Source of the DNA: a virus
Lineage: Duplodnaviria; Caudoviricetes
Reading direction: 5' to 3' (one strand)
Length of the DNA stretch: 64,000 bases
IMG/VR virus record: IMGVR_UViG_3300032138_000524
Span: 32,001-96,000 of that record
A model generated the notes under the pieces. It searched no databases and had not been told where the DNA came from. It was given only the letters and a program-made list of their open reading frames with translations. The position numbers and the translations under genes are program-made. This document shows positions 27,200 through 51,923 of this stretch, in pieces (position 1 is the first letter of the stretch; each line of letters starts with the position of its first letter).

Positions 27200-30019
27200 A
27201 TGAATAAACGTAATCTAATCTCATCGGTAATGACCATTCTAATGCCTATGTTCCTTTTCGGACAAGCAGTAATTGAAGAAAAGGTAGAGACAAGCATTGG
27301 TGGTGTAGTTTCTGATGAGTCAAACAATCCAATAGTTGGAGCCAATGTGATTGTAGAAGGAACTGATTTAGGTTCAGCTGCAGATGCAGATGGATACTAC
27401 TCTATTGATTTAGGGGCAGGTTCTTATTCACTTACAGCTTCCGCAATTGGATATGAATCTCAATCGTCTGAGGTGTCAATAAAAGAAGGTGATTCAGGAA
27501 TTACCAACTTTGTATTGGTCATATCAGCAATTGAGATGTCGGCATTAGAAGTTTTAGCTTCTCGTGCAGGCGAAAAGACACCTGTTGCACATACAACGGT
27601 AGAAAAAGCAGAAATTGAATTTCGTCTTGGTTCACAAGACTTACCAATGTCTCTTAATCTAACACCAAGTGTATATGCAACTCAACAAGGTGGTGGTGCG
27701 GGTGATGCTCGTATCAATGTTCGTGGTTTTAATCAACGGAATGTGGCGGTAATGATTAACGGAGTCCCACAAAATGATATGGAAAACGGTTGGGTCTATT
27801 GGTCTAACTGGGACGGTGTAGCAGACGCTGCACATTCTATCCAGATGCAACGTGGACTCTCCGCAGTCAATTTAGCTACCCCTTCCATTGGTGGAACTAT
27901 GAACATCATAACTGATCCTACTGCTCACGAAAAGGGTGGTAAGTTCAAACAAGAAAGTGGCGCAGGTGGTTTTCTAAAAACCACTCTGAATTATAATAGT
28001 GGTCTTATAGGTGATAAATTCGCCTTGAGTGGTACTATTGTAAGAAAAACAGGTGATGGTGTCATAGACAAAACATGGACAGACGCTTGGGCATATTACT
28101 TTGGTGCAAGTTACGCACTAAACGCTGATAACCGATTCGAATTATACGCAATCGGTGCTCCACAACGACATGGACATAATTTATACAAACAGAATCTTGG
28201 TGCATACGATGCCGATTTTGCTGCGAGTGTAGATGGATATGATACTGAAGCACTTGGTGAAGATGGTAAGTTCAAGGATGTCGGTAGGTTCTTTAATCAG
28301 AACTGGTCACCAGTTGATCCGTCATATACAGGTAAACAATACTATTATATGTATGGAGCTAAAACTGTTGATAGACACGATCCTAACTTCATTAATGAAA
28401 GAGAAAATTTCTTTCATAAACCATTAGTAAACCTTAACCATTATTTAACTATCGATGACAAAACAAGACTGAGTTCAGTTCTGTATTGGAGTGGTGGTTC
28501 AGGTGGTGGAACTGGTACTTATGGTAGGATTCCTACAACGGATGCTGATGGAGTTACGGGTCTGGAGGATTATAAGTTCTATTATGGTCGTAGTCCTTGG
28601 ACACGTGATTGGAATGCTCTTATCGCTATGAATAGTGGTGATGATGATACAGTATATGTAGACAAAAGAGTTCTTCCAAGAACACACGGTGAAGGTAATA
28701 ACCAATCTGTAGGTATTTTGAGGAATAGTATTAATCGTCAGAATACACTTGGTCTTATTTCTAAACTTAACTATGATTTTAGTGATGAACTTAAATTACA
28801 AGTTGGTATAGATTGGAGAACAGCAGGTATCGAACACGCACGTGAAGTTCGTGATTTGATGGGTGGAGATTATTATTTGGATTTTGCAGATGATAACGCA
28901 CCAGATGGTAAAAGAGTTGAGTTAGGTGATATAATCGCTTATCACAATGAAACTACCGTTGATTGGTTAGGTGGATTCTTACAGGGTTCATATTCTTCAG
29001 GACCACTTTCCGCATATGGTATGGGTGGAGTATCAAGCATAGCTTATACTTACCAAGACCATTTCACAGTTGCTGATGAAGTAATATCTGCAGACGCTAT
29101 TATTACTACTCAGTTCAAAGGTGGAGCAATGTATGATGTTACTGAAGGACTTAGTGTTTTCGGTAACTTTGGTATAGTAGAAAAACCGCCCATTATGGAT
29201 AATGTGATTTATTTTGATGGAACGGTTGCTTCAGATCCCGCAAACGAAAGATTCGTCAGTTCAGAAGCTGGTGTAAACTATTCGTCAGGGATTGGAGCAG
29301 TTAAAGTATCTGCTTATAGTACAGATTGGAAAGACAGAAACCTTACCAAATCTGTAACAAGCGGACAAGGTTCAAGTGGTGATACTGATGTTATATTCCT
29401 AAGTGGAATAAATCAGAAACACCAAGGTGTTGAAATTGAAGCTTCCACACAAGTACTTGATTTACTTAGCTTAGGTGCTATAGTAAGTCTTGGAAATTGG
29501 AAGTTCGATGGTGATGCCGATGGAAATTATCAAGAAGATGAGTTTAACGAAGATGGTCAAGTCATTGGACAAACGACTACTCCGTATTCTTACGCACTTG
29601 ATGGTTTGTTTGTTGGTGATATGCCTCAAACATCTTACGCACTTGTTGGAACTCTAACTCCCATAAAGGGATTACAGTTACAGGCAGTATACAATCAGTA
29701 TGATAACAATTATTCTGATTGGAGTCCTGGAGCAAGAGAGTATGATGGTTCAGATGCAGACGCAGACAGAGAACAAGTATGGAAAGCACCTGGATATTCC
29801 AAAGTGGATCTCCACGCTTCCTATAAACTACCGATTGGTGGATATGATGCATCTTTATTCGCTCATGTATTTAACGCGACAGACGCAGTATTTGTTCAAG
29901 ATGCGGTAGATCACAGTCAATACAATAGTTACGGTGATAAAACACACGCAGCTCACAACGCAGAAGTATTTCTTGGAACTCCAAGATATTTCAATGTTGG
30001 TATTGCAGTTAGTTTCTAA
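27200..30019 (+). CDS. TonB-dependent outer-membrane receptor with CarboxypepD_reg-like N-terminal domain
   Basis: Signal peptide; PIVGANVIVEGT..G..AD.DGYYSI; plug RINVRGF...INGVP; C-terminal PRYFNVGIAVSF. Confidence 0.9.
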   Translation: MNKRNLISSVMTILMPMFLFGQAVIEEKVETSIGGVVSDESNNPIVGANVIVEGTDLGSAADADGYYSIDLGAGSYSLTASAIGYESQSSEVSIKEGDSGITNFVLVISAIEMSALEVLASRAGEKTPVAHTTVEKAEIEFRLGSQDLPMSLNLTPSVYATQQGGGAGDARINVRGFNQRNVAVMINGVPQNDMENGWVYWSNWDGVADAAHSIQMQRGLSAVNLATPSIGGTMNIITDPTAHEKGGKFKQESGAGGFLKTTLNYNSGLIGDKFALSGTIVRKTGDGVIDKTWTDAWAYYFGASYALNADNRFELYAIGAPQRHGHNLYKQNLGAYDADFAASVDGYDTEALGEDGKFKDVGRFFNQNWSPVDPSYTGKQYYYMYGAKTVDRHDPNFINERENFFHKPLVNLNHYLTIDDKTRLSSVLYWSGGSGGGTGTYGRIPTTDADGVTGLEDYKFYYGRSPWTRDWNALIAMNSGDDDTVYVDKRVLPRTHGEGNNQSVGILRNSINRQNTLGLISKLNYDFSDELKLQVGIDWRTAGIEHAREVRDLMGGDYYLDFADDNAPDGKRVELGDIIAYHNETTVDWLGGFLQGSYSSGPLSAYGMGGVSSIAYTYQDHFTVADEVISADAIITTQFKGGAMYDVTEGLSVFGNFGIVEKPPIMDNVIYFDGTVASDPANERFVSSEAGVNYSSGIGAVKVSAYSTDWKDRNLTKSVTSGQGSSGDTDVIFLSGINQKHQGVEIEASTQVLDLLSLGAIVSLGNWKFDGDADGNYQEDEFNEDGQVIGQTTTPYSYALDGLFVGDMPQTSYALVGTLTPIKGLQLQAVYNQYDNNYSDWSPGAREYDGSDADADREQVWKAPGYSKVDLHASYKLPIGGYDASLFAHVFNATDAVFVQDAVDHSQYNSYGDKTHAAHNAEVFLGTPRYFNVGIAVSF

Positions 30020-30081: not shown

Positions 30082-31074
30082 ATGCACAAATTAGAATATT
30101 TGTGGTTGGACGGTTGTAACCCAACTCAAATTAGAAGTAAAACCAAGATAGTTAAGTCTTTTGGACGAAAGGGTGGTGAGGCACCAGTATGGGGATTTGA
30201 TGGCAGTTCAACTGAACAGGCAGAAGGTAAAAATTCTGATTGTGTGTTGAAACCAGTAAGGGTATATCCACATCCATCTGAACAAGATAATAGTTCAATA
30301 GTTTTATGTGAAGTATGGAATGTAGATGATACACCACATTCAACAAATACAAGGAGAGAGTTAGAGGAAACATTACAAGCTTTAGAAAGTGATATTGATG
30401 AATGGGTAGGATTCGAACAAGAATACACTTTATATGAAAACAATAAACCATACGGTTGGCCAGATATAGGAGAACCACCACCACAAGGAGATTATTATTG
30501 TGGTAGAAACATTGGTGAAAATATATCAAGAGAACATATGAACGCCTGTATAGAAGCAGGTATTCAGATTTGTGGAACAAACGCAGAAGTGATGTTAGGT
30601 CAATGGGAATATCAGATTGGTGCAGGTGGTTCAATTCATATGAGTGATGACTTGTGGGTAGCCCGTTGGTTAATGGAAAGAATTTGTGAGAAACACGAGT
30701 TATCAGTTTCGTTACATCCAAAACCAATCGCAGGTGATTGGAATGGTGCAGGATGTCATACTAACTTCTCTACAGGGGAAATGAGAGAAGATGGTGGATA
30801 TCCAGCTATTATTGAGGCCTGTGAAAAGTTATCAGAAAATCCACAAGAACATATTGATGTGTATGGTCAAGATAATGACCAAAGACTTACAGGAGAACAC
30901 GAAACTTGTTCTATTGAAGAATTTCGTTATGGAGTTTCAGATAGAGGAGCATCAATTCGTATTCCTTGGCAAGTAGAGAAAGATGGTTGTGGTTATTTAG
31001 AAGATAGACGACCATCATCTAACTGTGATCCGTATAAAGTTAGCAAAAAATTGATAGAAACGATTTGTAGTTAG
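30082..31074 (+). CDS. glnII: Glutamine synthetase type II
   Basis: EYLWLDG, WGFDGSST, GFEQEY, NAEVMLGQWEYQIG, HPKPIAGDWNGAGCHTNFS, RGASIRIP, YLEDRRPSSNCDPY. Confidence 0.9.
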   Translation: MHKLEYLWLDGCNPTQIRSKTKIVKSFGRKGGEAPVWGFDGSSTEQAEGKNSDCVLKPVRVYPHPSEQDNSSIVLCEVWNVDDTPHSTNTRRELEETLQALESDIDEWVGFEQEYTLYENNKPYGWPDIGEPPPQGDYYCGRNIGENISREHMNACIEAGIQICGTNAEVMLGQWEYQIGAGGSIHMSDDLWVARWLMERICEKHELSVSLHPKPIAGDWNGAGCHTNFSTGEMREDGGYPAIIEACEKLSENPQEHIDVYGQDNDQRLTGEHETCSIEEFRYGVSDRGASIRIPWQVEKDGCGYLEDRRPSSNCDPYKVSKKLIETICS

Positions 31075-31098: not shown

Positions 31099-33630
31099 TT
31101 GTATCAAAACGTTTATTACGAAAGTCGTAAAAACAAAGTACATATATGGGATGATAAAAGTGGTCATGTAGTTGTGCCTTATAAAAGGTATGCTTATGTG
31201 AAAGATAATTATGGAACTCATGTATCTTTGTATGGTGACAGATTAAAGAAAGTATATAAGTGGGAAAAAGGTCTTAAAGGATTACACGAAAGTGATATAA
31301 ATCCTGAAACACGAACTCTCATTGATATGTATACCAATAGTGAAGAACCATCAACTGGTCATAAAATTATGATTATTGATATTGAGGTAGAAGTTACAGA
31401 AGGATTTCCAAGTCCACAAAAGGCACCAAATAAGATTACTTCTATTGCCATTCACGATAGTGTAACCGACCATTATTGGTGTTTTGTTCTTGATGAACAA
31501 AGTAAACTCCAACGGTCTGATTGGGGTAAAAATGTAACTGTAGAAACTTTTGATAAAGAGTTTGGGTTATTACAGAGGTTTTACGCAAAGTATTTAGAAA
31601 TACGACCAACTATTATAACTGGTTGGAATGTAGATGGTTTTGATATTCCGTATCTTTACAATCGTTCACAACAGATAGTTGGTAAGAATATTGCTGATTG
31701 TCTTTCACCAATTTCAAAAGTATTTTATAATAAATACAGAGAAAAATATATGATAGCAGGGGTGAGTTGTTTAGACTACCTTATGTTATACAAGAATTTT
31801 ACTTTTAGTTCTAAACCATCTTACAGATTAGATGAGATTGGTAAGAGTGAAGTTGGAACATCCAAAATATCATACGAGGGAACTTTAAATGATTTATATG
31901 AAAACCACTTGGAAGATTTTGTTAAGTATAATATTCACGATGTTAGGATAGTAAAGAAATTAGACGACAAGTTAGATTTTATTGATGTAGCTCGTGGTAT
32001 TTGTCATGTAGGGCATGTTCCGTATGAGGACATTGTGTATGATTCTCGGTTCTTGGAAGGTGCAATATTAGTATATATGAAAAAACTTGGAGTTGTAGCA
32101 CCTAATAAAACACCACGAGAAGATGTAAAGAAAGATAAGAAATTTGCAGGAGCATATGTTCAGGATCCACAAAAAGGTAGACACGATTGGGTGTATGATT
32201 TAGATATTACATCTATGTATCCGTCAATTATTATGAGTTTGAATGTATCTCCTGAAATGAAGATTGGTAAAGTTGTTGGTTGGAATCCAGAAGAATTTAT
32301 TAGAGGTAAGAATAAGACTTATTCTATTCAAATGAATGGAAAGAAGAAAGGACAATTTACTGAAACAGAGTTGAAAGATTTCTTTGATAAAAATCAAGTA
32401 TCTATATCCAATAATGGTATTTTATATAGAACTGATAAACAAGGATTAATACCAACATTATTATCAGAATGGTTTGATAAACGAAAAGAGTTTAGAAAGT
32501 TAGCAAAAAAGTTTGGTGATGAGGGTGATGAAGAAAAATATGGTTATTTTAATAGACGACAACATATTCAGAAGATTGTGTTGAACTCTATGTATGGAGT
32601 ATTGGGTTTACCAGTATTTAGGTTCTATGACTTGGATAATGCAGAAGCAACTACATTAACAGGTCAATCTCTTATTAAGTTCACACGAAAACTTGTTAAT
32701 CACTTTTATAACAAGGAATTAGGAACGGAAAAAGACTATTGTATTTATATTGATACTGATTCAGTATTTTATTCTGCAGTACCATTAATTGAACATAGGT
32801 TTAAGGGTGAAATGAGTGATGTAATGATGACTCAAAGAATTAATGAGGTTGCAACAGAAGTTCAAGGATTTTTAAATGAAACCTATGATTATTTTGCACA
32901 GAAATTCTGTAATTTGAATAAACATCGTTTTGAGATTAAACAAGAAATTGTAGCAAAGAGTGGGTTATTTATAGTAAAGAAACGATATGGTATGAAGGTC
33001 ATTTCAGATAATGGTGTTCAAGTGAACAAAACGATGGTTAAAGGATTAGATACAGTTCGTAGTAATTTTGCACCACTATTCAGACAATTATTAGCTGATG
33101 TATTAGATGATATTTTAGGAAGTGTTCCAAAGGACAAGATAGACCACAGAATAACAAGATTTAAAAAGAATATGAAACTTAATCAACTCGATGAAATCTC
33201 ATCTCCGACTGGAGTTAAGGGGATATGGAAATATTTGAGAAAAGATAATGAACATACTTCAGATTTACTTGAAAAACAAAAAGATAGACGAGTATTTTCT
33301 TTATTCCATAAAGGAACACCAGTTCATGTAAAGGCAGCAATTGCATACAATGACTTGGTTAGGTATTTTGGCCAAGATAACAAATATGGGTTTATAAATA
33401 ATGGGGATAAAATTCGTTGGGTGTATCTGAAAAATAATCCATTGGGGTTAAAGGTCGTGGCATATAAAGGACATGAAGATCCACCAGAAATTATGAAATA
33501 TATAGATGAACATATAGACCACGATAAAATTTATGACCAAGCAATGACCAAAAAATTACAAATGTTTTATGATTGTTTGGATTGGGGAAAACCAGTAGAT
33601 GAAGAACAAAGTATAGAAAGATTTTTTTGA
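31099..33630 (+). CDS. Family B DNA polymerase (gp43-like)
   Basis: Exo DIEV and GWNVDGFDIPY; DLDITSMYPS; KIVLNSMYG; YIDTDS; KKRY; TTG start after AAGAGG. Confidence 0.93.
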   Translation: MYQNVYYESRKNKVHIWDDKSGHVVVPYKRYAYVKDNYGTHVSLYGDRLKKVYKWEKGLKGLHESDINPETRTLIDMYTNSEEPSTGHKIMIIDIEVEVTEGFPSPQKAPNKITSIAIHDSVTDHYWCFVLDEQSKLQRSDWGKNVTVETFDKEFGLLQRFYAKYLEIRPTIITGWNVDGFDIPYLYNRSQQIVGKNIADCLSPISKVFYNKYREKYMIAGVSCLDYLMLYKNFTFSSKPSYRLDEIGKSEVGTSKISYEGTLNDLYENHLEDFVKYNIHDVRIVKKLDDKLDFIDVARGICHVGHVPYEDIVYDSRFLEGAILVYMKKLGVVAPNKTPREDVKKDKKFAGAYVQDPQKGRHDWVYDLDITSMYPSIIMSLNVSPEMKIGKVVGWNPEEFIRGKNKTYSIQMNGKKKGQFTETELKDFFDKNQVSISNNGILYRTDKQGLIPTLLSEWFDKRKEFRKLAKKFGDEGDEEKYGYFNRRQHIQKIVLNSMYGVLGLPVFRFYDLDNAEATTLTGQSLIKFTRKLVNHFYNKELGTEKDYCIYIDTDSVFYSAVPLIEHRFKGEMSDVMMTQRINEVATEVQGFLNETYDYFAQKFCNLNKHRFEIKQEIVAKSGLFIVKKRYGMKVISDNGVQVNKTMVKGLDTVRSNFAPLFRQLLADVLDDILGSVPKDKIDHRITRFKKNMKLNQLDEISSPTGVKGIWKYLRKDNEHTSDLLEKQKDRRVFSLFHKGTPVHVKAAIAYNDLVRYFGQDNKYGFINNGDKIRWVYLKNNPLGLKVVAYKGHEDPPEIMKYIDEHIDHDKIYDQAMTKKLQMFYDCLDWGKPVDEEQSIERFF

Positions 33631-33688
33631 TTTTGAACAAAGTTGTATATATGTATATATAACAGATTAACAATAAGGAGAATAATAA

Positions 33689-34408
33689 ATGAATAAATAC
33701 AAATTAACTCGTTTCATTGATAAATACCATTTAGGTGGTAATGTTAATGCAGTGGTTATCAATAGTAAAAAAGACAGTCTTACGACTCGTTTTATTACTG
33801 GAGATAAAGCACTACTCGGTGAACTATCAATGGCTAATTGGACATTTGATGAAGCCGAATTAGGAGTTTACGATACGGAACAACTTAGTAGATTATTAGG
33901 TGTTTTGGATGATGATGTAAATCTTAATTTGACTCAATCAGGTGATAAAGCAATTGCAGTTGAGATTTCTGATGCACTATCCAAAGTCAACTTTATGTTG
34001 TCGGATAAATCAGTTATAAATCAACCACCACCTTTGAAACAACTTCCTGAATTTCAGATAGCAATCAAGGTGGATTCCAATTTCATTCAGAGGTTCATTA
34101 GTGGTAAATCTGCATTACCAGATACAGATACCTTCACGGTAATTACCGATGATGATGGAGTGAAACTTGTTATAGGTTATTCGTCAATTAATACAAACAG
34201 GGTTACTATTCCTGTTGAAACTACTGAACATTCTAATATAGAAAATGTGTCTTTTAACGCAAATTTATTCAAAGATGTGTTAGTAGCAAATAAGGAATGT
34301 GAAAGTGCAACGCTTGAAGTAAGTGAACAAGGATTGTCAAAAATCAATTTTAAGGTTGATGACTATGATGTTACTTACTTTCTTGTAGCCGTCCAAACAG
34401 TTGATTGA
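33689..34408 (+). CDS. Sliding clamp (gp45/PCNA-like)
   Basis: 239 aa directly after PolB; alternating beta/alpha pattern ending VTYFLVA as in clamps. Confidence 0.7.
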   Translation: MNKYKLTRFIDKYHLGGNVNAVVINSKKDSLTTRFITGDKALLGELSMANWTFDEAELGVYDTEQLSRLLGVLDDDVNLNLTQSGDKAIAVEISDALSKVNFMLSDKSVINQPPPLKQLPEFQIAIKVDSNFIQRFISGKSALPDTDTFTVITDDDGVKLVIGYSSINTNRVTIPVETTEHSNIENVSFNANLFKDVLVANKECESATLEVSEQGLSKINFKVDDYDVTYFLVAVQTVD

Positions 34409-35375
34409 TTTTGATAATTTCCCAACTTTTAGTGAAGAACATTTCCAGACTTGGACAAATGAATTAACACCGATTGAAGAACATAAAGGTTATTTAGTTA
34501 AACGAGATGACCTTTTCAATCTAAGTGGAGTTTCTGGAGGCAAAGTTAGACAATGTTCTAAACTTGTCTATGATAATTTAGACCACATACTCAATGAGTG
34601 TAATGGTGGGATATTAACGGCTGCCGGTATTCCGTCGCCACAAAGTTGTATCACATCAGCAGTCGCTAAGTATTTTGGTCTAAAATGTTTGATTACGATA
34701 CCACATTATCCAGACCACATTAGAGATAGTTATAGAGTAAATGCTTCATTATCGCAGAAGTTTGGTGCCAAGGTGTATGGAGTAGGTAATCCGAATATAT
34801 CAGGACCAGAACTTGATGCCAAGAAATTAGTAGGTGAAACGGGTTATTTTCAGATAAAATTTGGTATGAATGGACGACAAGTAATGAAAACTATTGCCCA
34901 ACAAGTCAAAAATGTTCCAGATCACGTGACAACAGTCGTGGGGATCGCTGGGAGTGGTTTGTCTATGTTAGGTGTAGCAATGGGTTGTAAGTTGTATAAT
35001 AAGAATATTAAAACGATATATCCTGTAGCATTAAGTAGTTATGTGTATAAAAACAAGAAAATGTGGTATGATCGTCTCCCAAAACGTGATCAATTTGACG
35101 GAGATTTTAAAGTTGTTCAGTCAGACTATCCATACCAACATAAATTGAAATTAGATGAATCACTACCACTTGACCAAACATACGAGGCAAAAGCATGGGA
35201 TTGGATGGTAAAGAACTTAGAACCATCTGAAAAAGTGTTATTTTGGGATGTTGGTATTAAGGAATATGACTTAGATTATATTGAACCTATCAAATGGCAC
35301 AAAAGTGAATATGAGAAAATCATAGATAGAGAGGTAAGGAGAAAGTCAAAGGTTACAAAACATGACTTTTTCTAA
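34401..35375 (+). CDS. PLP-dependent fold-II enzyme (D-cysteine desulfhydrase / ACC deaminase-like)
   Basis: LTPIE, VKRDDL...SGGKVR (PLP lysine), GIAGSGLSMLG, LDQTYEAKAW. Confidence 0.75.
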   Translation: MIDFDNFPTFSEEHFQTWTNELTPIEEHKGYLVKRDDLFNLSGVSGGKVRQCSKLVYDNLDHILNECNGGILTAAGIPSPQSCITSAVAKYFGLKCLITIPHYPDHIRDSYRVNASLSQKFGAKVYGVGNPNISGPELDAKKLVGETGYFQIKFGMNGRQVMKTIAQQVKNVPDHVTTVVGIAGSGLSMLGVAMGCKLYNKNIKTIYPVALSSYVYKNKKMWYDRLPKRDQFDGDFKVVQSDYPYQHKLKLDESLPLDQTYEAKAWDWMVKNLEPSEKVLFWDVGIKEYDLDYIEPIKWHKSEYEKIIDREVRRKSKVTKHDFF

Positions 35376-35895
35376 GGCGTGGTTAGAAAAGAAGATAATG
35401 TGTGGTTTATGTAACTTCGGTTGCTGTAATCATCCATCATTTCATGTAGAAATCACAGAAGAAGAACAAGAATTTTACCAAAAGGAATATGAATTAGACC
35501 TTGAATTGGAATGGAAGCAAGACGGTTGTTGTAAGTTATTAAAAGATGACAATACAGGCTGTAGTTTGGGAGATGACAGACCAGTATTTTGTAAGTTGTA
35601 TCCATTAGTAGAAAACAAGTCTAATAGATTAGTGATGAATAATTGGGGATACTTACATTGTCCTAAACCTGACAATTATGAATTAGATAAAGTAGTAGAT
35701 GGAAAATATCACTACAAGTTAAAAAAGAAACATAAGAATAAACGAGATAAATTGATATTGGATGATAAGATAGAAAATGTGGTTAAACAGATTTGGTTGC
35801 AATCAAAAGATTCTATTATTCAGAAATATGGTCGAGAGTATTATGAGAAAATAAAAATGGAAATGAAACAAACAATTAAACACGAGTTTTTTTAA
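35362..35895 (+). CDS. CxxCxxxCC Fe-S/Zn cluster protein (YkgJ-like)
   Basis: CGLCNFGCC, CCKLL...GCSL..RPVFCKLYP, CP. Confidence 0.7.
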   Translation: MTFSKAWLEKKIMCGLCNFGCCNHPSFHVEITEEEQEFYQKEYELDLELEWKQDGCCKLLKDDNTGCSLGDDRPVFCKLYPLVENKSNRLVMNNWGYLHCPKPDNYELDKVVDGKYHYKLKKKHKNKRDKLILDDKIENVVKQIWLQSKDSIIQKYGREYYEKIKMEMKQTIKHEFF

Positions 35896-35898
35896 AAG

Positions 35899-36408
35899 AT
35901 GAGTAAAATATTTTTAATAGGTTTTATGGGAGTTGGTAAAACTACAGTTGGTAAAGTTTTAGCAAAAAAGTTAAATTATAATTTTATCGATACAGATGAC
36001 GTAATAGTTAATAAATTTAATATTCATAATGGTGATATATTGGGATTTTTTGAAGATAGAAAAAAATATTTAGATGAAGAAACTATTATTATTGAAGATT
36101 TAATTAAACAAAAAGATATAGTAGTTGCTACTGGTGGTGGTATTATTTTGAAGAATAAAAACATACAATTAATGATGGAAAATGGAATTGTAATATATTT
36201 GAAAATGTCCGTAGAAACTCAAATTGAAAGAATAGAAAGTTTAGAAGAAAAATCTTTGAAAAAAAGATTTTTACCGACCATTAGAGATAGTGGTAAAAAG
36301 TTTATGGAAGGCAGAAATATACTTTATGAAAATAATGATTTTACTGTTGATACAAATAATAAATCTGTTGAAGAAGTTTGTTCGGATATAATTAGTGAGG
36401 TTTTTTAA
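35899..36408 (+). CDS. aroK: Shikimate kinase-like P-loop kinase
   Basis: IFLIGFMGVGKTTVG, FIDTD, VVATGGG, R..LY. Confidence 0.75.
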   Translation: MSKIFLIGFMGVGKTTVGKVLAKKLNYNFIDTDDVIVNKFNIHNGDILGFFEDRKKYLDEETIIIEDLIKQKDIVVATGGGIILKNKNIQLMMENGIVIYLKMSVETQIERIESLEEKSLKKRFLPTIRDSGKKFMEGRNILYENNDFTVDTNNKSVEEVCSDIISEVF

Positions 36409-37430
36409 TGAGTACAGAAACGGCCTTTTGTGATTTACCTTGGACAAGACTTAAAGTTAGTCCTGGTGGAGAAATAACTAATTGTTGTTGGCAACAGATA
36501 GGTATTGGAAATGTGATACATAAATCATTTACAGATTTATGGACAAATAGTGATACTTTAAAAAGTATTAGAAAAGATATAAAAGATGGAGATTTTCATC
36601 CGTTATGTAGTGAATTTGGTTCTTGCCCATATATGAGTGATGCGAATCCTGCAGAATGGAGTTCTTGGTATTCTAACGAAGAAAGTACTTTTGAGTATGA
36701 TAAGTATCCAACAATGTTAGAACTCGATTTACCAAACACTCATTGTAATATTGGTCCTGGTATTCCAGATGATGATACGAATCCTGCTTGTATTATGTGT
36801 GCAAGACGACTTGATGGGTTTGTTAATGATACTACTCATCTTTTTAAAGGTATATGCGAAAAGATTCAATTTTTGATGCCTTATTTAGAGAGAATTCATA
36901 TTCAAGGATATGCAGAACCACTTTATAAAGATATAGTTTTTGAAGTCTTAGATTGGTTAGATTTTAGTATTTTCAAAAAAAAAGTGTGGTTGAGTATGAT
37001 TACTAACGGAATGTATGTTAATGAAAAGACTTCTAATAGATGGATTGAATCTGCTGATAAAACTACAATAATGGTTTCGATAGATGCTGGAAGCAGAGAA
37101 ACATATAAAAAAATTAGAATAGCAGATGCGTATGATTTAGTGATAAAGAATATGATTAAGTATAGTAAAAATAGAGATGGTGAACAACATAAACTTCATA
37201 TTAATAATAACATTAACACAATTAATGTTCATGAGTGTGTAAAAATGATAGAAGATGCGGATAGGATTGGAGTAGATGTTATACAACTTGGTCCTACGGA
37301 TCCTATGGAAATGACGCAAGATATATGTGTAAATGAATCTAATAGGGAAATATTTGAAGAAAACTTTGAACTTGCAAGATTAAGAGCAGAAGAATTAGGT
37401 GTTAACATTCAACTTTTAAAAGGATTTTAA
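36408..37430 (+). CDS. Radical SAM protein with N-terminal SPASM/twitch domain
   Basis: CDLPW...NCC...C..CP, then CX14CX2C, GYAEPL, ITNG, VSIDAG. Confidence 0.75.
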   Translation: MSTETAFCDLPWTRLKVSPGGEITNCCWQQIGIGNVIHKSFTDLWTNSDTLKSIRKDIKDGDFHPLCSEFGSCPYMSDANPAEWSSWYSNEESTFEYDKYPTMLELDLPNTHCNIGPGIPDDDTNPACIMCARRLDGFVNDTTHLFKGICEKIQFLMPYLERIHIQGYAEPLYKDIVFEVLDWLDFSIFKKKVWLSMITNGMYVNEKTSNRWIESADKTTIMVSIDAGSRETYKKIRIADAYDLVIKNMIKYSKNRDGEQHKLHINNNINTINVHECVKMIEDADRIGVDVIQLGPTDPMEMTQDICVNESNREIFEENFELARLRAEELGVNIQLLKGF

Positions 37431-38650
37431 TGTATATAGATTACTTTGATAAATTTTACAATATGGAGCCCTATCTTAAAATAGATGAGAAAGATTGGGA
37501 ATACATAAAAGAAACATTTGATAAAGAGGATGTAAAGGAAAGTCTTGCTACGGTAGCAATGACCTATCCACTTCCATATCCAAACTTAACTGAAAAGAAG
37601 GCGTGGAGAGATTTTCAGAAATTAAAGGGTATGAAATGGAACGAAATTATGGTAGAGGGTGAGTGGTATGCAAGAGAGGGGACGAAGTATAGTTACAATT
37701 TGAATTATGATGGAAAACAACTTTATTTTCGTAGGTTGAATGCAGGAAACGATTGTAGTAATTATTTTCAGATAGAAAATCGTTGGTCAGTAGATGGTTC
37801 AGTATCACCAGGTCCGAAACGGACTTGGGAAAACCACAAGTTTATGAAAACACTTATGGGAAGTGCATATTCACTTAAAATGCCTAAGATTACCAAGAAT
37901 ATACTGAGAACTATGATTGGACTTCGTAAATATATTTGTTCCCAATTTAAACCGAATGTGGCTAAGATAATTTATGATATGTTTGAGTCAGAGAATATTC
38001 TTGATTTCAGTGCAGGTTGGGGTGATAGACTTGCTGGATTCTATGCAAGTGAACACGGAAAACATTATGTAGGAATAGACCCACGAAAAGAGAATCATTC
38101 TTTATATGAAAAACAAGCTAATTTTTACGATAAACATTTAGGATTTTTTGAACACGAGAGAAAATCAGAATTTTATTGTTCACCTGCAGAAGATTTTGAT
38201 TTTACTCAGTATGACGAACACTTCGATATGGTATTTACGAGTCCACCATACTTTAGCGTAGAGCGTTATAGTTATGACGATACACAAAGTTGGGTTAGAT
38301 ACAAAGATATAAACGATTGGAATAAAGATTTCTTACAGACGACCTTGGGTAACTTATGGGGCAGTATTAAGAGTGGTGGATACTTATTAGTGAACATTAG
38401 TGATGTTTATACAAATTCAAAATGGTCAACCGAAAGGGGTTGGTTAGAGATTTGTAATCCAATGAATGACTATCTATCTAAATTAGGAGAGTATCAAGGT
38501 TGTATTGGAATGGAAATGGCAAAAAGACCGAATAGTGGTGGAGCAGGAACAGCAAAAACCTACGAAGGTTCAGTATGGACAGAAAAATCACTTGAAAATA
38601 AAGAAGATAAGAAATTCGGAGAACCTATTTGGGTATGGAAAAAGATTTAA
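37430..38650 (+). CDS. Amino-methyltransferase (N4-C/N6-A DNA methylase-like)
   Basis: SQFKPNVAK, ILDFSAGWGDRL, YVGIDP, FTSPPYF. Confidence 0.75.
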   Translation: MYIDYFDKFYNMEPYLKIDEKDWEYIKETFDKEDVKESLATVAMTYPLPYPNLTEKKAWRDFQKLKGMKWNEIMVEGEWYAREGTKYSYNLNYDGKQLYFRRLNAGNDCSNYFQIENRWSVDGSVSPGPKRTWENHKFMKTLMGSAYSLKMPKITKNILRTMIGLRKYICSQFKPNVAKIIYDMFESENILDFSAGWGDRLAGFYASEHGKHYVGIDPRKENHSLYEKQANFYDKHLGFFEHERKSEFYCSPAEDFDFTQYDEHFDMVFTSPPYFSVERYSYDDTQSWVRYKDINDWNKDFLQTTLGNLWGSIKSGGYLLVNISDVYTNSKWSTERGWLEICNPMNDYLSKLGEYQGCIGMEMAKRPNSGGAGTAKTYEGSVWTEKSLENKEDKKFGEPIWVWKKI

Positions 38651-39303
38651 ATGTAGATATAAATAATTTTATTGTAAACTACGAAAGAGATTGGATTATA
38701 GAACTCAGAGATGATTATTTAAAACTCATATCAAAATACGATGTTTACCATAAAAAATTTTTTGATGCACCAGGTAATTGGGGCCCAACACAACGGAATA
38801 ACGACTTATACTTTGATTCTGAAATTTCTGATTATTTTAAAAGGTTACTATACTTACCAAATGTTGCAGTATTAGATTTTATTATTCGTAATAGAGAGGA
38901 ATTCCAAGATTTAAAATTTTTAGATAATGGTTCAGGGTTTGGGTTGTTATCTATTTTTATGAAAAAATTAAATTTAGATTGTTATAATTTTGATAACTAT
39001 GAACAGATGGGAAATATTAATCCGTCTGATGATTCATTTTTTAAAAAATATGATATAAATCCACCAAGTAAATTATTACCAAATGATATAAATATTATGA
39101 TGAGTAATGGTATTTTTATTACAGAAGATGGACTAATAGATTCTGAGTTTGATTACTTATTTATAGATAGTATGTATTTAACTGAAAATTCTGCATGGGA
39201 TGTGAAATGGCCTAACCGAAAAAGGTTTTGGTCAAAGGTAGATGATAATTATAATTTAGAACATCAGTATGATGGTGTTCTTTCAATTTTTAGACACAAA
39301 TGA
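38629..39303 (+). CDS. Class I SAM-dependent methyltransferase-like protein
   Basis: FLDNGSGFG glycine loop. Confidence 0.5.
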   Translation: MGMEKDLNVDINNFIVNYERDWIIELRDDYLKLISKYDVYHKKFFDAPGNWGPTQRNNDLYFDSEISDYFKRLLYLPNVAVLDFIIRNREEFQDLKFLDNGSGFGLLSIFMKKLNLDCYNFDNYEQMGNINPSDDSFFKKYDINPPSKLLPNDINIMMSNGIFITEDGLIDSEFDYLFIDSMYLTENSAWDVKWPNRKRFWSKVDDNYNLEHQYDGVLSIFRHK

Positions 39304-40082
39304 AATACATTAAATTTATATATCCAAAATATCCACCAACAGGATTATTACATCTTACAGTTAATTTAAAATATCTTTTAAAATATTCATACGATATAGG
39401 AAAGATTCCAATAATACCAAAGTTTACTCTTGGTGAGAGAGTAGGGTTAGGTTCAGAAAAGGTATTTGATTCAAATCTTAGTGAATATTACGATTATCCA
39501 AATGTAAAAATAAATGGTGAATCATATAAAGTATTAGTTGATGATAATAATCTAAAAGAAGATGATGTTGAGATATTTAATTGTGAATGTAAAGAAAAAC
39601 TACCTTCTTCTAATTATTTTCCCACGAATTCTAATTTTAATAAATTAGTTGGTAAAAATATAGATATTGAATTACCGATTCAAAAATATTTAGTAGAAAG
39701 TGCCTCTAAGATAACAGAACTATTAAGAAAATATGTGTGTGTTCATGTAAGACGAGGAGACTTATTGAAATTAGAACCAGAATCGGTTAGGGCTACAGAA
39801 TCAAAAAATATATTAAAAGTTTTAGATGAGGTAGTTGATGAGTCTTATTGTGTTTACATTATGACAAACGAAACGGATTTAAGTTTATTTGATGACATAA
39901 CTGAAAAATATAATACTCATTTTTGGACAGAGTTTGATGAATTAAAAAAATGGTATAGTAAAAGTAATTATCTATTATTTGCCATTGAGTTATTAATTTT
40001 AAAAAATGCAAATAAAAAGATTTCAACACAAGAGAAACCTTATGGGTTTGGTGTTGGTTATTGTGATAAGTGGTTATTTTGA
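39300..40082 (+). CDS. Fucosyltransferase-like (GT-B) protein
   Basis: VCVHVRRGD and VYIMTNE motifs typical of GT11/GT23/O-FucT. Confidence 0.6.
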   Translation: MKYIKFIYPKYPPTGLLHLTVNLKYLLKYSYDIGKIPIIPKFTLGERVGLGSEKVFDSNLSEYYDYPNVKINGESYKVLVDDNNLKEDDVEIFNCECKEKLPSSNYFPTNSNFNKLVGKNIDIELPIQKYLVESASKITELLRKYVCVHVRRGDLLKLEPESVRATESKNILKVLDEVVDESYCVYIMTNETDLSLFDDITEKYNTHFWTEFDELKKWYSKSNYLLFAIELLILKNANKKISTQEKPYGFGVGYCDKWLF

Positions 40083-40083
40083 T

Positions 40084-41124
40084 ATGATAATATTACATAA
40101 AGATAACCCTATATATTCTTCACACGGAAAAGATAATTATTTAGAAAGATTTATTGGAACGGATAGAGATAACAAATATAAATGGAGTCATATCGGTGGA
40201 TTGTATCATGAAAAATTTGAAACCTTATTTAAGTCTTGTGGTTTAGATTATAAAATGTCTTATTATGAAGATTATCCTAATATAGAAGGTGAATATTTTT
40301 TTGGTAGATTTGCACATGCAAAATCCGATAAGGATATACATAAAAATATTTATCCTAAATTGGAAAAGAGATTTGATAATATTTGGCCTAATAAAATAAC
40401 ATATGAATTATATGATGAAAAAATAAAACAATTTGAATGGTTGGAGTCGGTTGGATATTCTCACTTGGTAGATTATGAAGTTGTTAATTCACTCGAAGAA
40501 CTTTATCAGAAAGTTAAAGTAGGTGATGTTGTTAAATCAAGTGTTGGTGCATCAAGTGGGAATTTATTTCTAATAACAGAACCTAAGTATTGTGAGTATG
40601 AAAATTTATATGAATTGATAAGGGAATGTGATGAGAATCGGTTGTGGAATTCAAATGATAATTTTTTTCCAGCAATGATACAACCAAAATATGAAGGATT
40701 GGTTCACAAGTTATTTATAACTAACAATTATGTTTATGATAAGAAGTGGACACAATCATGTGATACTTCTGAACCATTAAATTTCGGTGTAGGTCATCCA
40801 GATAGGAAGTGGATAAATACAAATAAAACATTATCAAGTTATGTGACATTAAAGGATGAGTTGAGTCAGATATCAATTTATAATGAGTGTTTGGACATTT
40901 GGGATAGATTAGATACACCAAATTTGTGTATCGATTATATTGAAACAGATTTGGGTGGAAAGATAATAGAGTTTAGTTATTTATACACAGAACCTATTCC
41001 AGCATCAGATTTTTATGGTAGATATAATTTTGATAAAAATAAATTTGAAAATACAGAAGAAAATATGAATGAAATATCATATAACCAAGTTAGTTCAGTA
41101 TTAAAGGAGTTTAATTTAGTATGA
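40084..41124 (+). CDS. ATP-grasp-like hypothetical protein
   Basis: YDEKIKQ, VVKSSVGASSGNL, MIQP, CIDY...IIEFSY. Confidence 0.5.
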   Translation: MIILHKDNPIYSSHGKDNYLERFIGTDRDNKYKWSHIGGLYHEKFETLFKSCGLDYKMSYYEDYPNIEGEYFFGRFAHAKSDKDIHKNIYPKLEKRFDNIWPNKITYELYDEKIKQFEWLESVGYSHLVDYEVVNSLEELYQKVKVGDVVKSSVGASSGNLFLITEPKYCEYENLYELIRECDENRLWNSNDNFFPAMIQPKYEGLVHKLFITNNYVYDKKWTQSCDTSEPLNFGVGHPDRKWINTNKTLSSYVTLKDELSQISIYNECLDIWDRLDTPNLCIDYIETDLGGKIIEFSYLYTEPIPASDFYGRYNFDKNKFENTEENMNEISYNQVSSVLKEFNLV

Positions 41125-41618
41125 TAAAAGTTAATTATGTAAATTATCAAACAATTGAGAAATATAAGGATAATCAATGGTTAGAAGTTTTTCCCGAAAG
41201 TGAAGATACACTTAAACATCACTATTTTGAATTCTATTCAGATGATGAGCCTATTGGATTTTGGAGATTAAGACATAAAGATGGAATAACTAATCATGGA
41301 AATAATTTTGTTTATTATGAACACCGCGGTAAAGGTTGGGGAAATAAAATTTTATTAATTAGTATGAATGTTATAAAAGAAATATTTCCTGATACTAAGA
41401 TTTTTTATGTACAATGTATTTTTACTAACAACAGAAATTTACATATAAGAGATAAACAATTTGGAATAGAAAATAGATATCTTGAAACAGCAGAACCAAA
41501 TAGGTTTGGGTTTATGGAAAAGTGTGAAAAGGATTACATTTATTATGATTCATTTGAAAATGTGTGGAATCGAAACAAGAAAGATATTGATAAATTAAAG
41601 GTTGTTTATGAAGGTTAA
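41121..41618 (+). CDS. GNAT acetyltransferase
   Basis: FVYYEHRGKGWG acetyl-CoA motif A. Confidence 0.65.
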   Translation: MIKVNYVNYQTIEKYKDNQWLEVFPESEDTLKHHYFEFYSDDEPIGFWRLRHKDGITNHGNNFVYYEHRGKGWGNKILLISMNVIKEIFPDTKIFYVQCIFTNNRNLHIRDKQFGIENRYLETAEPNRFGFMEKCEKDYIYYDSFENVWNRNKKDIDKLKVVYEG

Positions 41619-51494: not shown

Positions 51495-51497
51495 AAA

Positions 51498-51923
51498 ATG
51501 AAAAAATACTTTGAATTAGCACAAAATATAGCAGATATTTTTTCTCATGATGAAAAAACAAAGGTTGGAGCAGTCATTTTAAGTAGAGAGAACCTTGACA
51601 TATTATCTGTTGGGTATAATAGGTTTTCTGATGTTGATGATGAAAAAACAATAACATTATTAAATAAATCACCGAGAAAATATAATTTAATTTTACATGC
51701 TGAACGTATGGCAATAGAAAGAGCGAAAAAATATGGTTTACCAGTAGATAATAATATAATTATAACTACACTATTCCCTTGTTGGAACTGTGCAGAATTA
51801 ATTGTTAAAAATAAATTATCAAAGGTTTTTACTTATAAAAGACCACTCAGGGGATCTTGGTGGGATGATGAGCCTGTTTTAAAGTTATTTAAAAATAATA
51901 AATTGGAGATATATTATGATTAG
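51498..51923 (+). CDS. dCMP deaminase
   Basis: KVGAVI, SVGYN, HAE, PCWNC. Confidence 0.8.
   Translation: MKKYFELAQNIADIFSHDEKTKVGAVILSRENLDILSVGYNRFSDVDDEKTITLLNKSPRKYNLILHAERMAIERAKKYGLPVDNNIIITTLFPCWNCAELIVKNKLSKVFTYKRPLRGSWWDDEPVLKLFKNNKLEIYYD

What the first reader, a model, noticed from the sequence alone, without database searches (positions are those of the whole stretch)
33600..38650. Possible clamp-tethered DNA-modification cassette: shared C-terminal FF tails beside the sliding clamp
Seen in sequence: PolB ends EQSIERFF. The PLP enzyme that overlaps the clamp gene ends KVTKHDFF, the next CxxCxxxCC protein ends TIKHEFF, and the DNA methylase at 21993 ends VENEWF. Established: T4/RB69 gp43 and PCNA partners dock on the clamp through short C-terminal hydrophobic (PIP-like) peptides. 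Phage thymidine hypermodification pathways (e.g. Pseudomonas phage M6) combine a P-loop kinase, a radical SAM enzyme and a PLP enzyme. Inference: two unrelated enzymes sharing a KH[D/E]FF tail may ride the clamp and act on newly replicated DNA. Together with the adjacent kinase, radical SAM and SPPY methylase, they could form an undescribed replication-coupled base-modification system that would otherwise be annotated as metabolic genes. No amino-acid:DNA transferase or hmdU synthase is recognisable in this window.
Basis: partly seen in the sequence, partly recalled or inferred. Interest (0 to 1): 0.75.

Follow-up and report, generated by a model that had tools for sequence, protein, structure and literature searches.

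The report
Clamp-docking tails on phage DNA-modification enzymes
In this marine T4-like phage, a vitamin-B6 enzyme and a cysteine-rich protein next to the sliding-clamp gene end in the same short peptide as the DNA polymerase, so they probably ride the clamp; the B6 enzyme is a distant relative of an enzyme known to trim amino acids attached to phage DNA, which points to an undescribed DNA modification.

Summary
Of about 155 ORFs in the 131.8-kb phage contig, only three end in FF: PolB, the PLP enzyme and the CxxCxxxCC protein. The tails are kept in about 35 related viral contigs behind a variable linker.

The clamp-docking reading is supported in silico. In two distant T4-like phages (PolB 28% identical) the PLP homologue ends in the local polymerase's own tail (MEQFFV beside MEQFFI; IERFFV beside MEKFFK). 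Their gp55, a known gp45 ligand in T4, carries the same motif. A complete 44-kb phage with no detectable gp45-type clamp or PolB has a PLP homologue without the tail. Complex prediction gave weak support only.

The PLP enzyme is not an ordinary ACC deaminase. It is a remote homologue of ViI gp226, which decarboxylates serine attached to thymine in DNA. The 5-hmdU pathway partners were not detected.

Its recurrent neighbour is the SPPY methyltransferase-like gene. The kinase is shikimate-kinase-family and was found in none of the related contigs examined; the radical SAM enzyme is in only one of them.

The likeliest reading is a new clamp-coupled DNA modification of unknown chemistry.

The scan had already noted polymerase-like tails on hypermodification enzymes in other phages. 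It had also flagged this operon in two other genomes.

The parts
31099..33630 (+). Family B DNA polymerase (gp43-like). Its C-terminal tail SIERFF lies at 33610-33627.
   Evidence: PF00136 E 1e-40 and phrog_262 E 7e-178. Tail read; ERFF is kept in related contigs.
33689..34408 (+). gp45-type sliding clamp.
   Evidence: phrog_223 E 6e-12. 1108 homologues at E<=1e-3 in the representative library.
34401..35375 (+). Fold-type II PLP enzyme of the gp226-like 'GGKVRQ...SPQ' family. Tail-less homologues end shortly after the core LFWxVG motif; about 45 further residues from roughly nt 35256 form a linker and the tail KHDFF (35358-35372).
   Evidence: PF00291. hhalign to ViI gp226: probability 98.95, E 1e-17. 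Family profile scores 67 bits on gp226 against 26 bits on the best ACC deaminase. Tail conservation and co-variation.
35362..35895 (+). CxxCxxxCC (PF03692, YkgJ-like) protein with eight conserved Cys (seven invariant, one nearly) and the tail KHEFF (35878-35892).
   Evidence: PF03692, 25 bits against a cut-off of 23. Conserved Cys. Tails KH[EGD]FF; a 53%-identical homologue ends EEFFA behind an unrelated linker.
35899..36408 (+). Shikimate-kinase-family P-loop kinase. No homologue was found in the related contigs examined, so it is an accessory gene rather than part of the conserved module.
   Evidence: PF01202 E 3.5e-36. NCBIfam shikimate kinase models at 118 bits, below their cut-offs. No SK homologue in related loci.
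36408..37430 (+). Radical SAM enzyme with an N-terminal SPASM/twitch domain. Accessory: present here and in one related contig.
   Evidence: PF13186 and PF04055. NF033640 twitch radical SAM, E 3e-21. Found only in L075 among relatives. No match in cultured phages.
37430..38650 (+). SPPY amino-methyltransferase-like enzyme: a class I SAM fold behind an N-terminal domain of unknown function. It is the recurrent neighbour of the PLP gene.
   Evidence: Invariant F.P..A, D.S.GWG.R and TSPPY motifs. Model pLDDT 85. Best structural matches TrmN and Trm11, Z 15.4. Linked to the PLP gene in 5 of 6 phage lineages.
21993..23687 (+). N6/N4 DNA methyltransferase ending ENEWF (23670-23684), possibly a fourth tail-bearing clamp ligand.
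   Evidence: PF01555 E 9e-28. Tail [NH]EWF is kept in relatives, and the G001 homologue ends FIDRFMK, like that phage's PolB tail MEKFFK.

Best explanation
The FF tail is this phage lineage's version of the C-terminal gp45-binding epitope that T4 gp43, gp55 and gp33 share. The PLP enzyme and the CxxCxxxCC protein, and probably the DNA methylase at 21993, carry it on a flexible, variable linker. This would tether them to the sliding clamps left on newly replicated DNA.

The PLP enzyme belongs to the same divergent branch of fold-type II enzymes as ViI gp226, which decarboxylates an amino acid attached to a base in polymeric DNA. I therefore infer that it processes an amino-acid-like adduct on phage DNA, not a free metabolite.

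Its recurrent partner, the SPPY methyltransferase-like enzyme, is the best candidate for the enzyme that acts on the base first. The Cys-cluster protein is a lineage-specific accessory factor. The shikimate-kinase-like and radical SAM genes are strain-level additions.

Shown: the tails, their conservation and co-variation, the homology to gp226, the gene linkage, and no detectable 5-hmdU pathway partners. Inferred: clamp binding, DNA as the substrate, and any chemistry.
For: 1. Rarity and conservation. Three of 155 ORFs end in FF (P = 0.0034). The tails are kept in about 35 related contigs behind a high-entropy linker.

2. Co-variation. In G002 (complete, 179.7 kb) PolB ends MEQFFI and PLP ends MEQFFV. 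In G001 (175.7 kb) PolB ends MEKFFK and PLP ends IERFFV. In each genome only 3 of about 260 ORFs have FF in the last four residues.

3. Comparison with a known ligand. The gp55 homologues of G001 and G002 (phrog_234) carry GIERFM and GIEKFM at or near the C-terminus. The motif [ILMVF][ED][RKQH]F[FMW] occurs 5 times in each proteome, 4 of them in C-terminal tails, where 0.24 are expected (the motif was defined after seeing these tails). T4 gp43, gp55 and gp33 tails are known, interchangeable gp45 ligands on divergent linkers (PMC2988020).

4. Absence where no clamp was detected. A complete 44-kb phage (G005) with no detectable gp45-type clamp or family-B polymerase has a PLP homologue that ends in a non-hydrophobic tail.

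5. Complex prediction, clamp plus PLP residues 280-324: weak support. Score 0.51, best of 3 controls 0.00. The mark was reached by 58 of 80 solved complexes and 2 of 110 mismatched pairs. At 0.60 or under it was reached by only 7 of those 80 solved complexes and by both mismatches that passed. The runs agree in at least 95% of contacts and the partner's pLDDT is at least 55. A like complex (RB69 clamp with peptide) has been solved, so the pass may come from memory.

6. Homology to gp226. hhalign probability 98.95, E 1e-17 over 260 columns. The family's invariant Lys aligns with the proposed Schiff-base Lys92 of gp226. The SPQ loop and the YE.K...LFW.VG motifs are shared. The family profile gives 67 bits on gp226 against 26 bits on the best solved ACC deaminase. 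gp226 acts on O-serinyl-thymidine in DNA (PMC8989533).

7. Linkage. The PLP gene lies near an MT-family gene in 5 of 6 phage lineages, in different arrangements and at GC contents from 33% to 62%.

8. Precedents. T4 alpha-glucosyltransferase binds gp45 (PMC13216743). In ViI, the hypermodification kinase gp243 and transferase gp247 end like the ViI polymerase.
Against: - Binding has not been measured, and the structure prediction is only a weak pass.
- In this phage's own clade the PLP and CxxC tails ([KE]H.FF) share only the terminal FF with PolB (IERFF). gp55 is not on this 63%-complete contig, so the comparison with gp55 comes from distant phages only.
- No amino-acid:DNA transferase, 5-hmdU kinase or ThyA-type hydroxymethylase was detected in G000. 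No transferase or ThyA-type enzyme was detected in the (near-)complete G001, G002 and G005. The substrate adduct therefore has no identified source.
- The surrounding genes here and in G001 and G002 are glycan and small-molecule modification genes, which fits a metabolic role.
- The MT gene is absent within 10 kb of the PLP gene in one lineage (L070). MT homologues occur in cultured phages that did not appear among the PLP matches.
- gp226 itself does not end in a polymerase-like tail.
Confidence: 0.55

Rival explanations
1. The tails do dock on the clamp, but the enzymes do not modify bases. For example, the PLP enzyme could destroy or convert the amino-acid part of SAM or S-adenosylhomocysteine next to clamp-bound methyltransferases. 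Alternatively, the proteins could regulate clamp occupancy.
For: - The tail evidence is as in the main explanation.
- Two or three DNA methyltransferase-like genes are present, one of them with its own aromatic tail.
- No enzyme that would install an amino acid on DNA was detected.
Against: - The closest characterised relative, gp226, acts on DNA-bound amino acids (PMC8989533).
- No known fold-type II enzyme is documented to use S-adenosylhomocysteine in this way (my own knowledge, not tested here).
Confidence: 0.15
2. The FF tails are not clamp ligands; they could be chance, shared ancestry or a different partner. The PLP, CxxC, kinase and radical SAM genes would then be the first genes of the roughly 32-kb glycan and metabolic island inserted between the clamp and clamp-loader genes, acting on small molecules or sugars.
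For: - Downstream genes are glycosyltransferases, WbqC, DegT and a sulfotransferase.
- In G001 and G002 the PLP gene also lies among TylF, FkbM, fucosyltransferase, SDR and AMP-ligase genes.
- The kinase is shikimate-kinase-like.
- Mel-JY01 has PolB, clamp and clamp loader with no insert, so this position is an insertion hot spot.
Against: - The tail is rare in every proteome examined. It follows the local PolB and gp55 tails across phages whose PolB is only 28% identical, and it is lost in the phage with no detectable clamp.
- The profile similarity to gp226 far exceeds that to metabolic ACC deaminases.
Confidence: 0.2
3. The locus is a variant of the canonical 5-hmdU-based thymidine hypermodification pathway (kinase, amino-acid:DNA transferase, radical SAM isomerase, PLP decarboxylase), as in M6 or ViI.
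For: A P-loop kinase, a radical SAM enzyme and a gp226-like PLP enzyme lie side by side.
Against: - No match to gp247 (transferase) or gp243 (kinase), and no ThyA-type hydroxymethylase, was found in G000. No gp247 or ThyA-type match was found in G001, G002 or G005.
- The kinase is shikimate-kinase-family.
- The radical SAM enzyme is a twitch/SPASM type with no hit in cultured phages, M6 included.
- No homologue of the kinase was found in the related contigs examined, and the radical SAM enzyme is in only one of them.
Confidence: 0.04

Closest known systems
C-terminal gp45-binding epitopes of T4/RB69 gp43, gp55 and gp33 (PMC2988020)
   Same: A short hydrophobic, partly acidic peptide at the extreme C-terminus behind a divergent flexible linker. 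It is shared between the polymerase and unrelated proteins of one phage, and in G001 and G002 the same motif is on gp55.
   Different: Here it sits on a PLP enzyme, a Cys-cluster protein and a DNA methyltransferase rather than on transcription factors. The motif is (E/H)-x-F-F. Binding has not been measured.
Salmonella phage ViI gp226 / Pseudomonas phage M6 gp52: PLP-dependent decarboxylases of amino-acid-thymidine conjugates in DNA (PMC8989533)
   Same: The same divergent branch of fold-type II PLP enzymes. The Schiff-base Lys aligns, and the SPQ loop and C-terminal core motifs are shared.
   Different: About 23% identity. No 5-hmdU kinase, amino-acid:DNA transferase or hydroxymethylase was detected in the genomes that carry it. 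It has a polymerase-like tail, which gp226 lacks. Its recurrent neighbour is an SPPY methyltransferase-like gene.
T4 alpha-glucosyltransferase binding to gp45 (PMC13216743)
   Same: A post-replicative DNA-modifying enzyme that binds the phage sliding clamp.
   Different: A different enzyme class and chemistry. In T4 the clamp interaction was found not to determine the share of alpha-glucosylation.
MccD plus MccE aminopropylation of microcin C (PMC10491745)
   Same: A SAM-dependent methyltransferase-fold enzyme paired with a PLP-dependent decarboxylase, the same logic as the MT-PLP pair here. MccD was the top Foldseek hit of the MT model.
   Different: The fold match is not distinguishable from many other class I methyltransferases. 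The substrate there is a peptidyl-nucleotide, not DNA. No homology of the PLP parts was tested.

Membership tests
gp45-binding C-terminal epitope (T4 gp43/gp55/gp33 type) | Epitope at the extreme C-terminus, joined by a divergent linker | tested here: met
   The last two residues are F in all 26 sequences aligned at that column, then F or W in 25 of 26. The preceding roughly 12 columns have 2.5-3.3 bits of entropy. Homologues without the extension end at the core.
gp45-binding C-terminal epitope (T4 gp43/gp55/gp33 type) | Same peptide as the cognate DNA polymerase of the same phage | tested here: met
   G002: MEQFFV (PLP) and MEQFFI (PolB). G001: IERFFV and MEKFFK. In G000 only the terminal FF is shared: KHDFF and KHEFF against IERFF.
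gp45-binding C-terminal epitope (T4 gp43/gp55/gp33 type) | Same peptide on gp55 of the same phage | tested here: inconclusive
   Met in G001 and G002: GIERFM and GIEKFM. gp55 is not on the 63%-complete G000 contig.
gp45-binding C-terminal epitope (T4 gp43/gp55/gp33 type) | Physical binding to the clamp | not testable with these tools
   Prediction only: score 0.51 against a best control of 0.00, rated weak.
ViI gp226 / M6 gp52 PLP decarboxylases of DNA-bound amino acids | Fold-type II PLP enzyme whose Schiff-base Lys aligns with gp226 K92 | tested here: met
   BLASTP and hhalign place the family's invariant G(G/S)K(V/L)RQ lysine on gp226 K92. K92 is named in PMC8989533.
ViI gp226 / M6 gp52 PLP decarboxylases of DNA-bound amino acids | Closer to gp226 than to metabolic fold-type II enzymes | tested here: met
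   The family profile scores 67.3 bits on gp226 against 25.8 bits on the best solved ACC deaminase, at the same database size.
ViI gp226 / M6 gp52 PLP decarboxylases of DNA-bound amino acids | Co-occurrence with 5-hmdU DNA kinase, amino-acid:DNA transferase and dUMP hydroxymethylase | tested here: not met
   No gp247 or PF00303 match in G000, G001, G002 or G005, and no gp243 match in G000. Very remote homologues could have been missed.
ViI gp226 / M6 gp52 PLP decarboxylases of DNA-bound amino acids | Decarboxylase activity on polymeric DNA | not testable with these tools
   Needs enzymology.
ACC deaminase / D-cysteine desulfhydrase (TIGR01275) | Score above the curated family cut-off | tested here: not met
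   36 bits against a cut-off of 289, with only residues 32-101 matched.
5-hmdU DNA kinase (ViI gp243 type) | Sequence similarity of the window's kinase to gp243 | tested here: not met
   gp243 finds nothing in G000 at E<=1. The kinase matches PF01202 shikimate kinase, E 3.5e-36.
Shikimate kinase (PF01202 / NCBIfam equivalogs) | Family score cut-offs | tested here: inconclusive
   Pfam gathering score passed (125 against 22 bits). All NCBIfam shikimate kinase equivalogs are below their cut-offs (118 against 204). An SK-fold homoserine kinase model also matches (97.5 bits).
(S/D/N)PPY amino-methyltransferases of nucleic acids | SAM-binding Rossmann fold with motif I and an invariant xPPY motif IV | tested here: met
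   Invariant D.S.GWG.R and TSPPY. Model pLDDT 85. Z 15.4 to TrmN and Trm11, rmsd 2.5-2.9 over 175-180 residues. PF01555 at 25.3 bits, just under the cut-off of 26.7; the G002 homologue passes at 29.2.
PF03692 CxxCxxCC (YkgJ-like) | Pfam gathering score and conserved Cys clusters | tested here: met
   25.0 bits against a cut-off of 23. Eight conserved Cys, seven invariant and one nearly.
MccD-type SAM aminocarboxypropyl transferase | Specific structural or sequence similarity beyond the generic class I methyltransferase fold | tested here: inconclusive
   MccD (5fcd) is the top Foldseek hit at E 2e-7, but it is tied with many methyltransferases. VIA Z is 13.0 against 15.4 for Trm11 and TrmN.

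The most novel reading that the evidence does not exclude
The SPPY methyltransferase-fold enzyme does not methylate. Like MccD, it would transfer the 3-amino-3-carboxypropyl group of SAM, here onto an exocyclic amine of a DNA base. The clamp-tethered gp226-like PLP enzyme would then decarboxylate this adduct to an aminopropyl base. That would be a SAM-derived, replication-coupled cationic DNA hypermodification that needs no 5-hmdU. It would occur in an abundant group of marine T4-like phages and would have spread horizontally to unrelated phages.
Probability: 0.12. Interest if true: 0.9.

Novelty: new variant of a known kind. Interest (0 to 1): 0.62.

Why it matters
If the tails bind the clamp, the sliding clamp of T4-like phages recruits a wider set of proteins than polymerase and late-transcription factors, including DNA-modifying enzymes. 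The tail then becomes a cheap sequence mark for finding DNA-acting enzymes among genes that are otherwise annotated as metabolic.

The gp226-like PLP family without any detectable 5-hmdU machinery points to a DNA hypermodification route that has not been described. It occurs in phages that are very abundant in marine metagenomes: the neighbouring MT gene alone has more than 3,500 homologues in the protein collection. Such modifications shape resistance to restriction and CRISPR. They also bias sequencing of environmental viromes.

Tried and rejected
The ENA and Logan contigs that carry PLP homologues with SLF- or SLFD-type tails could not be fetched, so co-variation rests on two distant genomes plus this phage's own clade.
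- A genome-contig scan with the broad alignment A5 failed for lack of a conserved stretch. A narrower alignment worked.
- The CxxC protein folded poorly (mean pLDDT 49), so no fold search was made. It has no match in cultured phages, and the Atlas lists only viral PF03692 clusters above 0.95.
- The radical SAM protein has no match in cultured phages.
- ViI gp247, gp243 and PF00303 found nothing in G000. gp247 and PF00303 found nothing in G001, G002 or G005.
- Fold searches of the MT model cannot separate methyl transfer from aminocarboxypropyl transfer. phmmer of MT against PDB sequences gave nothing useful.
- An MT-family HMM found no member near the PLP gene in L070, L087, L100 or L103, in the Bacteroidales loci, or in the ViI region.
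- Pfam on the neighbours of the PLP gene in L070, L090 and L099 showed no shared third partner.
- Literature searches found no report of polymerase-like tails on hypermodification enzymes other than T4 alpha-GT binding gp45. This library is incomplete.
- I considered that the PLP tail is forced by its overlap with the CxxC start codon. I rejected this because relatives without the CxxC gene keep the tail.

Full report
**Setting.** The window is bases 32001-96000 of a single 131,840-bp viral contig, rated 63% complete. Almost all genes lie on the + strand, and GC is about 30%. It is a distant T4-like phage: its family B polymerase is 44.5% identical to that of Microcystis phage Mel-JY01 and about 30% identical to those of T4-like cyanophages and vibriophages.

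The replication genes run in this order:
- Ro60
- gp32-like SSB
- UvsX/RecA
- 5'-3' exonuclease
- a DNA methyltransferase
- DnaB-like helicase
- class II ribonucleotide reductase
- a TonB-dependent receptor
- a glutamine-synthetase-like protein
- PolB (31099-33630)
- a gp45-type clamp (33689-34408)

In Mel-JY01 the clamp gene is followed directly by the clamp-loader genes. Here a gp62-like clamp-loader gene appears only at G000 98992-99435. The genes of the finding therefore open a roughly 32-kb accessory island. Further downstream the island holds glycosyltransferases, WbqC, DegT and a sulfotransferase.

**The observation.** All the quoted C-termini are correct. A simple ORF call gives 155 ORFs, and only PolB, the PLP enzyme and the CxxCxxxCC protein end in FF. 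The expected number is 0.30, and the binomial P for three or more is 0.0034. Only one further ORF ends in two aromatic residues, the DNA methylase (ENEWF).

In about 35 related IMG/VR contigs (64-97% identity) the tails persist as ERFF on PolB, H[DNG]FF on PLP and H[EGD]FF on CxxC. Relatives without the CxxC gene keep the PLP tail, so the tail is not a side effect of its overlap with the CxxC start codon.

Across 32 PLP homologues, the roughly 12 residues before the tail are among the most variable in the protein. The last two are F in all 26 sequences aligned at that column, then F or W in 25 of 26. More distant homologues of 28-37% identity stop shortly after the catalytic core and have no extension. 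A 53%-identical CxxC homologue ends EEFFA behind an unrelated linker. This is the anatomy described for T4 gp55: a conserved hydrophobic and acidic clamp epitope on a divergent linker (PMC2988020).

**Is it a clamp epitope?** Two (near-)complete T4-like phages from IMG/VR, G001 (175.7 kb) and G002 (179.7 kb, terminal repeats), encode PLP homologues that are 47-48% identical to this one. Their PolB is only 28% identical, so the PLP gene has moved between lineages.

| Genome | PolB tail | PLP tail | gp55 tail |
|---|---|---|---|
| G002 | MEQFFI | MEQFFV | GIEKFMVVV |
| G001 | MEKFFK | IERFFV | GIERFM plus 8 residues |
| G000 (this phage) | IERFF | KHDFF | gp55 not on the contig |

In each of G001 and G002 only three of about 260 ORFs have FF in the last four residues. 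Both phages have strong gp45 homologues. Their gp55 homologues were identified with phrog_234; in T4, gp55 is a known gp45 ligand.

The G001 homologue of the window's DNA methylase ends FIDRFMK. The motif [ILMVF][ED][RKQH]F[FMW] occurs five times in each proteome. Four of the five lie in C-terminal tails, where 0.24 would be expected. The motif was written after seeing the tails, so this number describes the pattern and is not an independent test.

A complete 44-kb, 62%-GC phage (G005) has no detectable gp45-type clamp or family B polymerase. Its PLP homologue ends in a polar, non-aromatic tail.

A complex prediction of the clamp with PLP residues 280-324, both with alignments, gave weak support:
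- Score 0.51, best of 3 controls 0.00.
- The mark was reached by 58 of 80 solved complexes and 2 of 110 mismatched pairs.
- At 0.60 or under it was reached by only 7 of those 80 solved complexes and by both mismatches that passed.
- The runs agree in at least 95% of contacts, and the partner's pLDDT is at least 55.
- Because the RB69 clamp-peptide complex is solved, the pass may reflect likeness to it.

I rate clamp docking as likely, at about 0.7, but unmeasured.

**What the PLP enzyme is.** Pfam sees only a weak PALP match. NCBIfam's D-cysteine desulfhydrase and ACC deaminase models score far below their cut-offs. A family profile reaches solved ACC deaminases at only 26 bits.

Among cultured phages, tblastn finds 274 records, by organism name mostly phages of Salmonella, Klebsiella, Escherichia and Dickeya. 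Those inspected (aagejoakim, ViI) are Ackermannviridae. The matched gene is syntenic with ViI gp226, YP_004327553. gp226 is the purified PLP-dependent enzyme that decarboxylates O-serinyl-thymidine in polymeric DNA (PMC8989533).

The evidence for homology is:
- hhalign of the family against gp226 gives probability 98.95, E 1e-17, over 260 columns.
- The same profile scores 67 bits on gp226.
- The family's invariant lysine aligns with gp226 K92, the proposed Schiff-base residue.
- An SPQ loop and the C-terminal YE.K...LFW.VG motifs are shared.

The enzyme therefore belongs to the gp226-like branch rather than to metabolic ACC deaminases. The rest of the thymidine pathway was not detected. The serine:DNA transferase gp247, the kinase gp243 and ThyA-type hydroxymethylases find nothing in G000. 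gp247 and ThyA find nothing in G001, G002 or G005. This is a 'works like' claim, not membership of the 5-hmdU pathway.

**The other genes.** What recurs with the PLP gene is the SPPY methyltransferase-like gene (37430-38650), or its paralogue family:
- adjacent or nearly so in the G000 clade
- two copies upstream in L099
- directly upstream in G001
- four genes downstream in G002
- divergently adjacent in the 62%-GC phage group

It is absent within 10 kb in one lineage, L070. Its motifs F.P..A, D.S.GWG.R and TSPPY are invariant. The model is confident, with pLDDT 85. The best structural matches are xPPY-type RNA amino-methyltransferases: TrmN and Trm11 at Z 15.4, and METTL5. Homologues in cultured phages are annotated as DNA methyltransferases.

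The CxxCxxxCC protein (PF03692, eight conserved Cys) is confined to this clade. The kinase is shikimate-kinase-family, and no homologue was found in the related contigs examined. The radical SAM enzyme is a twitch/SPASM type found in one related contig. These two are not part of a conserved cassette.

**Mechanism.** The best-supported reading is that the PLP enzyme, the Cys-cluster protein and probably the DNA methylase are tethered to clamps on newly replicated DNA through a polymerase-type tail. The PLP enzyme would then process an amino-acid-like adduct on DNA.

There are precedents for clamp-bound DNA modifiers. T4 alpha-glucosyltransferase binds gp45 (PMC13216743). In ViI itself, the kinase gp243 and the transferase gp247 end like the ViI polymerase: VSLLGLMRKA and VNLMSLLKR beside VNLLSMMGKKG. 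gp226's own end does not resemble them.

The source of the adduct is open. One coherent but untested idea follows microcin C maturation. There the methyltransferase-fold MccD transfers the aminocarboxypropyl group of SAM, and a PLP decarboxylase turns it into an aminopropyl group (PMC10491745). MccD was the top Foldseek hit of the MT model, but it is not separable from other methyltransferases.

The rival readings are a clamp-bound but non-modifying role, or a purely metabolic role within the glycan island. Both remain possible, because the flanking genes here and in G001 and G002 are sugar and small-molecule enzymes.

**Earlier notes of this scan.** First readers flagged the same PLP, Cys-cluster and methyltransferase operon between the clamp and clamp-loader genes in two other genomes, without follow-up. 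Follow-up reports on ViI-like and T4-like phages had already noted polymerase-like tails on thymidine-hypermodification enzymes. I checked that claim on ViI sequences myself.

**Verdict.** The clamp-tether inference is supported in silico. The link to DNA modification is supported by homology and gene linkage. The proposed kinase and radical SAM cassette is not supported. This is a new variant of two known things: clamp-docking tails and gp226-type DNA-acting PLP enzymes. The chemistry is unknown and probably new.

Noticed in passing
L140-L146 (Bacteroidales MAG contigs): Tail-less homologues of the PLP enzyme (286-315 aa) sit directly beside a divergently transcribed tyrosine integrase. They are followed by variable defence genes: type I R-M HsdM/HsdS, REase-ARP, OLD/AAA_15 ATPases, NACHT. 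The 44-kb phage G005 also has an integrase next to its PLP gene.
   Followed up: partly
L137 (Salmonella phage ViI, NC_015296 110000-157061): The ViI DNA polymerase, the 5-hmdU kinase gp243 and the serine:DNA transferase gp247 end in similar peptides (VNLLSMMGKKG, VSLLGLMRKA, VNLMSLLKR). gp226 does not.
   Followed up: partly
window 27200-30019 and 30082-31074: A full-length TonB-dependent receptor lies between the ribonucleotide reductase and PolB genes. It has CarboxypepD_reg and Plug domains, a signal-peptide-like N-terminus and a terminal F. A glutamine-synthetase-like protein follows it. Both recur in related contigs.
   Followed up: no
window 34401-35375 compared with G001 and G002: The PLP enzyme is 47-48% identical between this phage and G001/G002, whereas PolB, UvsX and the helicase are only 24-28% identical. 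Homologues also occur in phages of 51% and 62% GC. The gene therefore appears to move horizontally between phages.
   Followed up: partly
window 36408-37430: The radical SAM protein has its SPASM/twitch domain at the N-terminus. Its only candidate cluster motif has the spacing C-x14-C-x2-C rather than CxxxCxxC.
   Followed up: no
window 35899-36408: The shikimate-kinase-like protein also matches the NCBIfam model of an SK-fold homoserine kinase (97.5 bits). It is below the cut-off of every model, so its substrate is open.
   Followed up: no
window 38629-53743: A long run of glycan-modifying genes lies inside the replication module: GT11-like, DXD glycosyltransferase, WbqC, a short DegT fragment, a sulfotransferase, a galactosyltransferase, MORN repeats and GNAT. 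The gene content varies between close relatives.
   Followed up: no
window 13399-14235 and 16911-18518: A glycoside hydrolase family 6 protein and a full-length Ro60 (TROVE plus vWA) are encoded upstream of the replication genes.
   Followed up: no
G000 99435-100520 (beyond the window): A second, 30%-identical paralogue of the SPPY methyltransferase-like gene lies directly after the gp62-like clamp-loader gene. It is the version most similar to the MT genes of G001, G002 and G005.
   Followed up: partly
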